Source: Chthoniobacterales bacterium
GTDB taxonomy: Bacteria > Verrucomicrobiota > Verrucomicrobiia > Chthoniobacterales > JACTMZ01
DNA length: 64,000 nucleotides
Direction of reading: 5' to 3'
NCBI GenBank assembly: GCA_018402585.1
Contig: JAGYIO010000002.1
Coordinates: 138,070-202,069, forward strand
Part shown: one piece after another, positions 62,037-63,396 of the stretch
Position numbering within the stretch: position 1 is the first letter of the stretch
How the letters are laid out: each line of letters opens with the position of its first letter
The notes under the pieces: model-generated
What the model was told of the DNA's origin: nothing
The model's input: the letters and a program-made list of their open reading frames with translations, nothing else
The model's database searches: none
Translations under genes and position numbers: made by a program

Positions 62037-62095
62037 GCCCGTGTGCGGATCCTCATCGCCGGTCGTTTTCCGAAAAAGTAGAAGCAACTGTGTTG

Positions 62096-63019
62096 TTAGG
62101 TGGGTGATGTTTGGAGGTTTTTCAGGGTGGAGTTGAGGTAGGTGAGGAATTTTCTGGCACAGGCGATGAGGGCGACTTTGGTGGGTTTGCCATTGGCGCG
62201 CAGGCGCAGGTAGAAGGTCTGCAGGGGCGAGGATTTTTTCCGGATGGCGCTCAAGGTCGCCATGTAGAGGGCGCGGCGCAGTTGGTTGCGACCGCCTTGG
62301 ACAAAGCGCACTCCGCGTTTTTCCCCGCTGTCTTTGGCAAAGGGGGCCAGGCCACAAAGGGCAGCGACCTGTTTGCGGTTCAGGTAGCCAAGTTCGGGCA
62401 GCTCGAGTACCAGAGTGGCTGCGGTCACCTCGCCGATGCCGAACTCGGAGAGTAAACGGCGGTAGCGGGCCTCCAAGCCGGGGTCGGCGGTGATGACCGT
62501 GACGATCTGCTCTTCCAGGGCCGCAATAGAGGCGTCGGTTTGCCGCAGATGTTTGCCGTAGAGTGTTTTCAGGCCACGGTCGGTGGCGTGCTCCAGAAGG
62601 TTGAGCCAAAAGACGCGTTGCCCGACCAGAGCCTGACGGCCGCGCAGCAACTCCATGGCCCGGAGATGGGCGGCTGACATGGGCGGTGTTACCGGCGGCT
62701 GCAAGTGCTCAGCGTAGTCGGTGATGATGGCGGCGTCGATGCGGTCGGTCTTGGCGCGCTGGCCGCGGGCTTTGGCAAAGGCGCGCACGCGCGCGGGGTT
62801 GACGATGGAGACGGGCACACCGGCGCGGTGGGCCAGAGTGGTTAGGGGTTTTTCATAACCTCCGCTGGCTTCGAGCACCAAATGGGCGTGGGCCGGGAGT
62901 TTGCGTAGCCAAGCTTTGAGGGCCTTGGCTTGATTGGGACAGGTCGGCGGGAGATGGGTCCCGTCGATCTGCAGGGTGTTTTTACTGACGTCGATACCGA
63001 TGTAGTTAATGCTTTTCAT
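62096..63019 (-). CDS. IS110 family transposase / DEDD recombinase
   Basis: GIDVSK, VLEASG, KTDRIDA (DEDD RuvC-like); C-terminal GLAP...DSG...GG...LR.ALY with the catalytic-type Ser. Confidence 0.96.
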
Positions 63020-63021
63020 AG

Positions 63022-63236
63022 TGCTCAGGCTTGTCATGCGAGCTCCGGCGCGAGATGAATCCCTGCCGTGCTCAGGCAACTGTTCGAGTTTATGGAAAAA
63101 GGACCCAAGCCGGACCTTTGGCTTCTACTCAGACTCGCCTTGCGGCGATACTTAGCGGCGTCGCGGTCACGACTCGGGCCGCGCTACCGGGGGTCATGAC
63201 CCCCGGTAGCGCCCTTCGGGCTACTCACCCGAAGAC
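63022..63236 (-). ncRNA. Putative IS110 bridge RNA (5' stem-loops, target-binding loop, donor-binding loop)
   Basis: Guide-like segments GACGCCGCT (63154-63162), GTAGAAG (63122-63128), ACAGTTGC (63076-63083) and GACAAG (63030-63035) sit in internal loops and match the element junctions; ends approximate. Confidence 0.85.
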
Positions 63237-63396
63237 ATTAGCACTATAGCAAAAAGGAACAGACAAGCGGCATCCTTGCCGCGCAACCCCAACGATAAGC
63301 GCCAGGGCCGGATTCTCACCAGGCATGCAAGTTGGACGCCCACGTCGGACTGCTTTTGCCGTGCTCAGTCGCCCCATATCGGCGACGGTTCACCTC

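What the first reader, a model, noticed from the sequence alone, without database searches (positions are those of the whole stretch)
62078..63274. IS110 element with a fully readable bridge RNA whose four guides match its own donor and target junctions
Seen in sequence (minus strand): the right junction is ACAGTTG-CT-TCTAC (core at 62083-62084) and the left junction is GATGCCG-CT-TGTC (core at 63266-63267). Excision would give donor ACAGTTG-CT-TGTC and restore target GATGCCG-CT-TCTAC. The ~245-nt non-coding end upstream of the DEDD recombinase holds two internal loops. Loop 1 is closed by GGCCCGAGUCG/CGGCUUGGGUC and has an inner UCGCC-GCAA-GGCGA hairpin. It carries GACGCCGCU (8/9 match to the left target plus core) and GUAGAAG (perfect complement of CTTCTAC). 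Loop 2 carries ACAGUUGC (left donor plus C) and GACAAG (complement of CTTGTC). Established knowledge: this is the IS621-type bridge RNA architecture of RNA-guided recombination. Inference: this is an intact, potentially reprogrammable RNA-guided recombinase ortholog from a Verrucomicrobium. The class is known; this ortholog and its specificity are probably uncharacterised.
Basis: partly seen in the sequence, partly recalled or inferred. Interest (0 to 1): 0.9.

Follow-up and report, generated by a model that had tools for sequence, protein, structure and literature searches.

The report
IS110 insertion sequence with bridge RNA
This is an intact jumping gene of the IS110 family whose own small RNA carries four short guides that spell out the genome site it inserts into and its own joined ends; it is a clean new example of the RNA-guided "bridge recombinase" systems first described in 2024, not a new kind of system.

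Summary
Window 63267-62083 (minus strand) is a 1,183-bp IS110-group element: a 246-nt left end, a 307-aa DEDD/Ser recombinase and an 11-nt right end, with CT at both junctions. The genome holds 4 copies (97-100% identical). Both other copies with assembled flanks sit in GACGCCG-CT-TCTAC, which matches the first loop's guides 9/9 and 7/7. The window copy sits in a one-mismatch site.

The target is the 3' arm of a small REP-like hairpin. Four exact unoccupied sites remain in the genome. The left end folds as 5' hairpins plus two stem-loops with internal loops, and compensatory changes support this fold in 4 species and in 30 relatives.

Guides track flanks. Relatives at 82% and 69% protein identity sit in GCCGCCG-CT-ACAxx and carry matching guides. 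When the right end was located from the donor guide alone, the cognate right-target guide matched exactly in 18 of 27 loci, against 10 of 580 non-cognate pairs.

This is a new, uncharacterised member. No wet-lab activity, RNA ends or circle junction are shown.

The parts
63267..63282 (-). Target-site hairpin in the left flank: 5' arm 63282-63277, loop 63276-63273, 3' arm 63272-63267. The left target (LT) GATGCCG is 63274-63268.
   Evidence: 6-pair stem, 4-nt loop. The other copies have GCGGCG-GGGA-CGCCGC. The window copy keeps the stem through a change on both arms.
63266..63267 (-). Left copy of the CT core dinucleotide
   Evidence: the same in all 4 copies.
63243..63248 (-). -10-like hexamer TATAGT. 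In the circular form, TTGCTT (right end + core + first base of the left end) would lie 16 nt upstream as a -35.
   Evidence: Read. A -10-like hexamer sits at the same place in all 4 species. This is an inference: the scan of the integrated copy found no sigma-70 site.
63213..63235 (-). 5' stem-loop 1 of the predicted bridge RNA
   Evidence: helix 1 has 9 pairs, 98.1% of cells paired, 7 pairs never vary.
63181..63212 (-). 5' stem-loop 2, a 32-nt perfect palindrome
   Evidence: (self-match on the opposite strand), 44: helix 2 has 14 pairs, 5 with compensatory changes.
63102..63180 (-). Target-binding loop module: outer stem, internal loop and inner hairpin (63148-63135)
   Evidence: helices 3, 4; helices 1-3: all 20 pairs show compensatory changes across 30 relatives.
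63154..63162 (-). Left target guide GACGCCGCU (same sense as LT + core, so it pairs with the bottom strand)
   Evidence: 8/9 to the window flank, 9/9 to the flanks of copies L002 and L003 and of G015.
63121..63128 (-). Right target guide GUAGAAG (63128-63122, complement of CT-TCTAC), followed by a C at 63121 in the handshake position
   Evidence: 7/7. The C can pair with G7 of both donor and target.
63096..63100 (-). U5 tract directly after the target-loop stem
   Evidence: terminator-like. It is conserved in the 4 close species; a run of 4 or more T occurs in 10 of 30 relatives.
63024..63088 (-). Donor-binding loop module: short basal stem (63088-63085 with 63027-63024) and inner hairpin (63073-63040)
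   Evidence: basal stem third pair CG:25, UA:4; inner helices show compensatory changes.
63076..63083 (-). Left donor guide ACAGUUGC (left donor + first core base)
   Evidence: It is 8 nt, as in IS621 (A123-C130; paper section read).
63029..63035 (-). Right donor guide GACAAG (63035-63030, complement of CT-TGTC), followed by a C at 63029 in the handshake position
62096..63019 (-). Recombinase gene, 307 aa plus stop. Catalytic residues are D10, E50, D92, D95 and S231.
62085..62095 (-). Right end (11 nt). The left donor ACAGTTG is 62091-62085.
62078..62084 (-). Right copy of the CT core (62084-62083) and the right target TCTAC (62082-62078), followed by a T-run

Best explanation
Window 63267-62083 (minus strand) is an intact, probably active IS110-group insertion sequence that works like IS621. 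Its 246-nt left end encodes a bridge RNA of about 210 nt with two 5' hairpins, a target-binding loop and a donor-binding loop. The recombinase is a RuvC-like DEDD domain joined to a Tnp domain with a catalytic serine. In the model it binds this RNA. The target loop pairs with both strands of a REP-like site, GACGCCG-CT-TCTAC, which is the 3' arm of a GC-rich hairpin. The donor loop pairs with the joined ends of the circular element, ACAGTTG-CT-TGTC. Strand exchange at the CT core then inserts the circle. Circularisation probably rebuilds a promoter (TTGCTT-16 nt-TATAGT) that drives the RNA. What is shown here: the anatomy, copy number, conserved RNA fold, guide-to-flank matches and their co-variation in relatives. 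What is inferred: transcription, RNA binding, catalysis and the promoter.
For: Protein: PF01548 and PF02371. NF033542 scores 200.6 bits against a cut-off of 140. IS621 (8wt6) matches at E = 2.8e-35 and ISCro4 (9t56) at 1.4e-33, with D-E-D-D and the Ser-Gly of IS621 aligned to identical residues (residues named in the paper sections read).

Copies: there are 4 in the 2.46-Mb genome, 97-100% identical, with open frames. The 3 with assembled ends share identical ends.

Target: copies L002 and L003 and the G015 relative lie in GACGCCG-CT-TCTAC, matching the guides 9/9 and 7/7. There are 4 exact unoccupied 14-mers in the genome, and 9 at 1 or fewer mismatches, the exact ones in REP-like hairpins.

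Chance: 0 of 20,000 shuffles reach the observed four-guide match.

Fold: across 4 species, 97.2% of cells are paired and 11 of 60 pairs have compensatory changes, against 3.9 +/- 1.5 in shuffles (0 of 500); slid controls pair 49% or less. A covariance model built from those species finds a full-length match just upstream of the gene in 30 of 32 sources. On that alignment 92.6% of cells are paired and 32 of 37 pairs are compensatory, 0 of 500 shuffles (the alignment is fitted to the model).

Co-variation of guides: G024 (82% aa) sits in GCCGCCG-CT-ACATA with GCCGCCGCU and UGUGUAG. G007 (69%) sits in CCGCCG-CT-ACAAT with GCCGCCGCU and UUUGUAG. A second IS110 type in the same genome (43% aa) sits in CTCGTCC-CT-ACCTT with UUCGUCCCU and AAGGUAG.

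Independent test: the donor-guide 7-mer plus CT is found exactly after the stop codon in 25 of 30 loci, including variant guides. The complement of CT plus the next 5 nt is exact in the cognate target loop in 18 of 27 loci (13 distinct pentamers), against 10 of 580 non-cognate pairs. LT+CT is within 1 mismatch in 11 of 17 cognate pairs against 5 of 194.

Handshake position: the base after the right target guide can pair with donor position 7 in 12 of 12 loci.

Weak hint of RNA: contigs of an RNA library (X20) cover 63015-63173 and 62894-63044 with 2 differences each.
Against: No experiment supports any step. No circle junction is in the assembly, and no joints appear in 4 laid runs; contigs drop rare forms, so this says little.

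The promoter scan found 0 sigma-70-like sites in the integrated copy. The junction -35 matches the consensus only in its TTG.

The RNA-library contigs cannot show strand, ends or true transcription, and DNA may be present in that library.

The window copy's own target has a C-A mismatch with the left target guide at LT position 3.

In the four close species the donor guides and ends never vary, so donor co-variation rests on the distant relatives.

Relatives are not independent, so the cognate versus non-cognate contrast overstates significance. 9 of 27 loci lacked an exact right-target-guide match and 6 of 17 had 2-3 mismatches in the left target guide.

Rfam 15 gave no family match to the left end at E of 1 or less.
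Confidence: 0.88

Rival explanations
1. It is a genuine IS110 element with a bridge-RNA-like left end, but it is no longer mobile. It would be a fixed relic whose RNA or recombinase has lost function, and the copies would reflect past activity only.
For: No circle junction or empty-site polymorphism was seen in the assembly or in four laid runs. One copy is 97% identical to the others rather than 100%, so not all insertions are very recent. A lake-metagenome contig (X4, record 29) carries a near-identical element ending in a flank that resembles that of copy L002, which suggests at least one insertion is shared between strains.
Against: All four copies keep open frames of the same length. The five catalytic residues are intact. 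Guides still match targets 9/9 and 7/7. The fold is under purifying and compensatory selection. A decayed relative looks different: G025 has 2 stops and only residues 154-297.
Confidence: 0.08
2. The guide-like matches are not guides. They would be chance matches, or fragments of the REP target captured in the left end, and the protein alone would recognise the REP hairpin.
For: The target is a structured REP-like hairpin. A preprint on ISPpu10 reports that such a target stem-loop adds specificity beyond base pairing (abstract and section 7 read).
Against: 0 of 20,000 shuffles reproduce the four-guide pattern. The two target pieces lie split on the 5' and 3' sides of an internal loop, in the opposite-strand senses published for IS621. 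Guides change with the flanks in relatives: 13 distinct right targets are matched exactly, against 10 of 580 non-cognate pairs. Donor guides also match, which REP capture would not explain.
Confidence: 0.02
3. It belongs to the IS1111 group and uses a seekRNA encoded downstream of the gene, not an IS621-type bridge RNA.
For: It has the same recombinase superfamily.
Against: The right end is only 11 nt and the left end 246 nt. All four guides and the conserved fold lie upstream of the gene. IS1111 elements are described as having long right ends and 7-17-bp sub-terminal inverted repeats (paper passage).
Confidence: 0.01

Closest known systems
IS621 (Escherichia coli), the founding bridge recombinase and bridge RNA (Durrant et al. 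2024, PMC11208160; Hiraizumi et al. 2024, PMC11208158; passages and sections read)
   Same: DEDD RuvC-like domain plus Tnp domain, with D/E/D/D/S aligned. Long left end and short right end. CT core. [quoted passage not shown] A 9-nt left target guide and an 8-nt left donor guide in the sense of the top strand. Right guides complementary to the top strand and including the core. A variable first loop and a conserved second loop. A REP-type target. A natural insertion site that differs by one base from what the guide encodes (IS621: ATCAGGCCTAC observed against ATCGGGCCTAC encoded).
   Different: The protein is distantly related (E = 2.8e-35). There are two 5' hairpins instead of one, so the predicted RNA is about 210 nt rather than 177. 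A U5 tract follows the first module. Target and donor sequences differ. The host is a freshwater Verrucomicrobium. The window copy's mismatch is C-A, not a G-T wobble. Nothing has been tested experimentally.
ISCro4 transposase (PDB 9t56)
   Same: It is the second-best solved relative, E = 1.4e-33 over residues 3-299.
   Different: Only the sequence match was seen.
ISPpu10 of Pseudomonas putida: 'sequence-structure dual match' (bioRxiv 10.64898/2026.03.19.712850; abstract and section 7 read)
   Same: The target is a REP unit in which a GC-rich 5' extension is complementary to the left target and forms a stem-loop that ends at the CT core. Here that holds for all three target types seen. The window copy keeps the stem through a change on both arms even though this costs a guide mismatch.
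   Different: The host phylum, sequence and repeat family differ. The role of the hairpin is untested here.
IS1111-group elements with seekRNA
   Same: Same recombinase family, and RNA-guided in principle.
   Different: Their RNA lies in a long right end with long sub-terminal inverted repeats. Here the right end is 11 nt and the RNA lies upstream.

Membership tests
IS110-group bridge recombinase system (IS621 type) | [quoted passage not shown] | tested here: met
   1.8e-17 and 8e-19, both above the curated cut-offs. NF033542 at 200.6 bits against a cut-off of 140.
IS110-group bridge recombinase system (IS621 type) | Catalytic D, E, D, D and the Ser (followed by Gly) of the Tnp domain are present | tested here: met
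   In the alignment to 8wt6_A, query D10, E50, D92, D95 and S231-G232 face IS621 D11, E60, D102, D105 and S241-G242 (chain numbering is +2). Residue roles come from the paper sections read.
IS110-group bridge recombinase system (IS621 type) | Long non-coding left end upstream of the gene, short right end, and a 2-bp core (CT) at both junctions | tested here: met
   Left end 246 nt, right end 11 nt, CT at 63267-63266 and 62084-62083. The ends are the same in the 3 copies with assembled ends.
IS110-group bridge recombinase system (IS621 type) | [quoted passage not shown] | tested here: met
   This element has two 5' hairpins rather than one. The donor-loop basal stem is only 3-4 bp; its third pair shows CG:25 and UA:4.
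IS110-group bridge recombinase system (IS621 type) | The 5' side of loop 1 equals left target + core, and the 3' side is the complement of core + right target. Loop 2 does the same for the joined ends. | tested here: met
   8/9 (9/9 for the two other copies with assembled left flanks), 7/7, 8/8 and 6/6; 0 of 20,000 shuffles.
IS110-group bridge recombinase system (IS621 type) | Guides co-vary with the flanks and ends across relatives | tested here: met
   right target guide exact in 18 of 27 cognate pairs against 10 of 580 non-cognate; left target guide within 1 mismatch in 11 of 17 against 5 of 194; donor guide + CT found exactly in 25 of 30.
IS110-group bridge recombinase system (IS621 type) | Handshake positions: the base after the right target guide pairs with donor position 7, and the base after the right donor guide pairs with target position 7 | tested here: met
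   in this element both are C and both position 7 bases are G. Across 12 loci the counts are 12 of 12 and 8 of 12 as printed. Donor position 7 is G in 11 of 12, so this is mostly conservation rather than co-variation.
IS110-group bridge recombinase system (IS621 type) | Circularisation rebuilds a promoter across the core that drives the RNA | tested here: inconclusive
   Reading: TTGCTT, 16 nt, TATAGT would form at the junction, and -10-like hexamers sit at the same place in 4 species. The -35 matches the consensus only in TTG. There are no sites in the integrated copy. I did not scan the joined sequence.
IS110-group bridge recombinase system (IS621 type) | A circular intermediate exists | tested here: inconclusive
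   No junction in the assembly. No joints in 4 runs kept as contigs, which drop rare forms.
IS110-group bridge recombinase system (IS621 type) | The RNA is made, binds the recombinase and is required for recombination; guide changes retarget it | not testable with these tools
   The only evidence is RNA-library contigs over 63015-63173 and 62894-63044, which give no strand, no ends and possibly derive from DNA.
IS1111 group (seekRNA) | Long right end carrying the RNA, short left end, 7-17-bp sub-terminal inverted repeats | tested here: not met
   Right end 11 nt, left end 246 nt. The definition is from the paper passage.
REP-hairpin-targeting IS110 elements (ISPpu10-like target logic) | The left target forms the 3' arm of a GC-rich stem-loop that ends at the core | tested here: met
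   true for the window type, the G024 type and the second type in the same genome. Whether the hairpin matters for function was not tested.

The most novel reading that the evidence does not exclude
In this Verrucomicrobial clade the bridge RNA may be made as two products. The GC-rich closing stem of the target-binding module is followed at once by a conserved U5 tract (63100-63096). This looks like an intrinsic terminator, so much transcription could stop there. That would yield a target-loop-only RNA plus a rarer full-length RNA whose donor loop ends 11 nt before the start codon (63019). Target-loop and donor-loop modules would then be supplied in different amounts, and donor-loop folding would be coupled to recombinase translation. 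The extra 5' palindromic hairpin may be a further lineage-specific control element. The structural paper's model already allows the two loops in one synaptic complex to come from different RNA molecules.
Probability: 0.12. Interest if true: 0.5.

Novelty: new member of a known kind. Interest (0 to 1): 0.3.

Why it matters
It adds a well-defined, apparently active bridge-recombinase orthologue from a phylum for which I found no printed description. Two full-text searches (IS110 + Verrucomicrobi + bridge RNA; Chthoniobacter + IS110) each found 0 papers. Supplementary orthologue lists could not be opened and may include it.

Its close relatives offer a natural retargeting series. Recombinases 69-82% identical keep the same donor ends and donor loop but carry different target guides that match different REP-like hairpins. 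That makes a ready-made guide-swap experiment, and a test of how much the target hairpin adds to specificity.

For genome annotation, it explains a repeat next to the rRNA operon and predicts the remaining insertion sites in this genome.

Tried and rejected
Rfam 15 at E of 1 or less over 60000-64000 matched only 23S and 5S rRNA, nothing in the left end.

The search for related loci in genome contigs gave only 2 loci, one a same-genus MAG and one a 28% relative. I used the genome search instead.

I looked for an orthologous empty site for the window insertion in the genus. Only 2 of 30 other genomes had short or weak matches to the left flank, so no empty site was available for comparison.

Circle junction: none in the assembly. 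There were no joints in the 4 laid runs. The parts of the stretch without cover in X20 (for example 63200-63450 and below 62160) tell nothing.

The promoter scan of the integrated copy gave 0 sites.

The upstream in-frame ATG at 63037, which overlaps the right donor guide, was considered as the true start. I rejected it because it is absent in the G007 relative.

The U-tract after the first module was considered as a general feature of the clade. I rejected this: a run of 4 or more T occurs in only 10 of 30.

Orphan bridge RNAs without a recombinase in this genome: none. The 6 model hits all lie beside recombinase genes.

The free four-guide scan chooses boundaries by the matches it then counts. 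I therefore treat it only as a lead. A reversed-sequence control gave 0 of 31 loci at 3 or fewer mismatches, against 8 of 31 in the real data. I based the claim on the donor-anchored test. In one search the script picked a wrong right donor guide for L020; I report the counts as printed.

Supplementary files of papers were not opened. No structure prediction, complex prediction or large protein search was run because none was needed.
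Full report
OBSERVATION. On the minus strand the left junction reads GATGCCG (63274-63268), CT (63267-63266), TGTC (63265-63262). 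The right junction reads ACAGTTG (62091-62085), CT (62084-62083), TCTAC (62082-62078). Between them lie a 246-nt non-coding left end, an open frame from the ATG at 63019 to the stop at 62098-62096 (307 aa), and an 11-nt right end. With one core the element is 1,183 bp. With the ends fixed, 0 of 20,000 dinucleotide shuffles of the left end gave four ordered guides with 2 or fewer total mismatches, which is the observed value; the best shuffle had 4, once.

PROTEIN. The frame carries PF01548 (DEDD_Tnp_IS110, 1.8e-17) and PF02371 (Transposase_20, 8e-19). It passes NCBIfam NF033542, 'IS110 family RNA-guided transposase', at 200.6 bits against a cut-off of 140. The only solved relatives are the IS621 transposase (8wt6 and others, E = 2.8e-35) and the ISCro4 transposase (9t56, E = 1.4e-33). 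In that alignment, query D10, E50, D92, D95 and S231-G232 face the IS621 residues that the structural paper names as the DEDD motif and the catalytic serine with its conserved glycine (sections read).

COPIES, ENDS AND TARGET. The window's genome (2.46 Mb, 35 contigs, 89.6% complete) holds four copies: the window copy, two further full copies (98.5% and 97.3% identical by BLAST), and one cut by a contig end. All keep the open frame.
- The three full copies start and end at the same bases.
- The two other full copies lie in ...GCGGCGGGGACGCCG-CT | element | CT-TCTACTTTT. Their left target matches the first-loop guide 9/9, where the window copy matches 8/9.
- The target is the 3' arm of a GC-rich hairpin, GCGGCG-GGGA-CGCCGC, whose last stem base is the C of the core.
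- In the window copy the hairpin reads GCGGCA-AGGA-TGCCGC. The stem pair changed on both arms, so the hairpin is kept (one search lists it as a 6-pair stem) while a C-A mismatch to the guide arises.
- The genome has 4 exact unoccupied 14-mers and 9 at 1 or fewer mismatches, the exact ones inside REP- or BIME-like repeat units. About 0.02 exact hits would be expected by chance for a 14-mer on both strands of 2.46 Mb (my arithmetic). A 17-mer of the hairpin plus core has 8 matches at 1 or fewer mismatches; 3 are followed by TCTAC and 2 by the element.

RNA FOLD. The left end folds far better than shuffles: -115.6 kcal/mol, z = -5.0, 0 of 200. I aligned the left ends of the three full own copies with those of the three same-genus relatives whose recombinases are 82%, 79% and 69% identical. 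The consensus fold gives two 5' hairpins, a first module (long outer stem, large internal loop, inner hairpin) and a second module (inner hairpin flanked by unpaired stretches).
- For a curated structure of 60 pairs, 97.2% of cells pair. 11 pairs show compensatory changes, against 3.9 +/- 1.5 in shuffles (0 of 500). Sliding the partners drops pairing to 49% or less.
- A covariance model of the two modules finds a full-length match directly upstream of the recombinase gene in 30 of 32 sources from the same order. The two misses are a locus with no upstream DNA and a 28%-identical relative from another phylum.
- On that 30-row alignment, which is fitted to the model, 92.6% of cells pair and 32 of 37 pairs show compensatory changes (0 of 500; slid 45% or less).
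- In the window's genome the model hits only the four copies and two copies of a second IS110 type. There is no orphan RNA.

GUIDES TRACK FLANKS. The strand scheme is the published one. [quoted passage not shown] The 3' side is complementary to the top strand and includes the core.
- G015: same target and same guides as the window type.
- G024: flanks GCCGCCG-CT ... CT-ACATA, guides GCCGCCGCU and UGUGUAG (one G-T position).
- G007: flanks CCGCCG-CT ... CT-ACAAT, guides GCCGCCGCU and UUUGUAG.
- A second IS110 type in the same genome (43% aa identity): flanks CTCGTCC-CT ... CT-ACCTT, guides UUCGUCCCU and AAGGUAG. Its left target is again the 3' arm of a hairpin.

To avoid choosing boundaries by the matches I then count, I located right ends from the donor guide alone. 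Its 7-mer plus CT occurs exactly within -10 to +160 nt of the stop codon in 25 of 30 loci. That includes loci whose donor guide differs (ACCGTTG, ACTGTTA, AGAGTTG, ACAGTTA), so donor guides co-vary with ends. The complement of CT plus the next five flank bases is then found exactly in the cognate first module in 18 of 27 loci, covering 13 different pentamers. The non-cognate figure is 10 of 580 pairs. With left ends placed by the right donor guide at the usual distance, LT+CT is within one mismatch in 11 of 17 cognate pairs against 5 of 194 non-cognate. Relatives share ancestry, so these ratios overstate independence. 9 of 27 and 6 of 17 loci fit less well.

The base after the right target guide can pair with donor position 7 in 12 of 12 loci, and with its own target position 7 in only 4 of 12. 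The base after the right donor guide can pair with target position 7 in 8 of 12 as printed. This fits the handshake guides of the structural paper. In the window element both are C and both position 7 bases are G.

EXPRESSION AND PROMOTER. In the integrated copy the scan finds no sigma-70-like site. Reading the sequence, joining the ends would place TTGCTT 16 nt upstream of TATAGT (63248-63243). The -35's TTG comes from the right end. A -10-like hexamer sits at the same place in all four species. This agrees with the published idea that circularisation rebuilds a promoter across the core, but it is an inference. A start about 7 nt after the -10 would fall at the foot of the first hairpin and give an RNA of about 210 nt, longer than IS621's 177 nt because of the second hairpin.

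Of 24 public runs listed, 20 hold part of the stretch; they come from 12 studies of lake, freshwater and salt-lake metagenomes. I laid four. The one RNA library (X20) has contigs over 63015-63173 (2 differences) and 62894-63044 (2 differences). These cover most of both modules and the gene start, but contigs show neither strand nor ends, and DNA may be present in that library. No joint (circle or empty site) was seen.

WHAT IT IS. It is an intact member of the IS110 group that works, as far as sequence can show, like IS621. Every defining feature that sequence can test was met. The promoter and the circle are inconclusive, and RNA production and catalysis are untestable here. It is not an IS1111-type element, since its right end is 11 nt. 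Its target logic, with the left target as the 3' arm of a hairpin ending at the core, matches what a 2026 preprint reports for ISPpu10.

NOVELTY. The class is known, and thousands of orthologues have been predicted. I found no paper that combines IS110 with Verrucomicrobia and bridge RNA, or with Chthoniobacter. Supplementary lists were closed and may contain it. The close clade (69% aa identity or more) was seen in only 4 species of one genus among 401 genomes of the order that were sampled. 42 of those 401 have a relative at E of 1e-40 or less. Lineage-specific points are the second 5' hairpin, a U5 tract after the first module (conserved in the close clade; a run of 4 or more T in 10 of 30 relatives), and the natural retargeting series. 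It is a new member of a known kind, of modest interest.

LIMITS. There is no experiment. Only four close species are available. The 30-row alignment is fitted to the model. RNA evidence comes from contigs only.

Noticed in passing
window 60000-61556 (+), 61761-61876 (+), 63325-63951 (+): The element sits between the 3' end of an rRNA operon (23S, 5S) and a carboxymuconolactone-decarboxylase-family (CMD, PF02627) gene, about 200 nt from the 5S gene and 58 nt upstream of the CMD start codon.
   Followed up: partly
G000:C31:about 101,700-102,900 (L020/L052) and the whole 1,238-bp contig C22 (L006): A second IS110-group element is in the same genome. Its recombinase is 43% identical and it has the same left donor ACAGTTG. 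Its target guides (UUCGUCCCU, AAGGUAG) match its own flanks CTCGTCC-CT-ACCTT. The target is again the 3' arm of a hairpin.
   Followed up: yes
G000, 7 sites listed at 2 mismatches (for example C1, C12, C23, C30, C31, C32): A second REP-like family...CGGCGGCGGGGACGCCGCCGCTACA..., carries the target type used by the G024 and G007 relatives (GCCGCCG-CT-ACA). It is present but unoccupied in this genome, which lacks that guide variant.
   Followed up: partly
window 63100-63096 (-): A U5 tract follows the GC-rich closing stem of the target-binding module and is scored terminator-like. It is conserved in the 4 close species; a run of 4 or more T occurs in 10 of 30 relatives. It could act as an internal terminator or attenuator.
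   Followed up: partly
window 63282-63250 (-): After insertion the target hairpin is followed by the T-rich first 17 nt of the left end, so it still scores as terminator-like. This might block read-through transcription into the element.
   Followed up: no
window 62016-62052: A piece of about 37 nt just outside the right end has very high summed contig depth in two lake or freshwater runs (1,283.8 in X3), with loose ends on both sides. It looks like a short repeat shared by many organisms, and it lies inside a larger hairpin-like unit. It is unexplained.
   Followed up: no
window 63037-63035 (-): An in-frame ATG 18 nt upstream of the chosen start overlaps the right donor guide and is preceded by GGAG at a spacing of 5 nt. 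It is present in 3 of the 4 close species but absent in G007, so it is probably not the start.
   Followed up: partly
G025:C3:276981-277397 (L017): A decayed relative: 65% identity over residues 154-297 only, with 1 TGA and 1 TAG inside.
   Followed up: no
X4 record 29 over window 62075-63210: A lake-water metagenome contig carries a near-complete copy with 17 differences in 1,136 nt. Its outer flank resembles that of copy L002, not the window copy, which suggests that insertion is shared between related strains.
   Followed up: no
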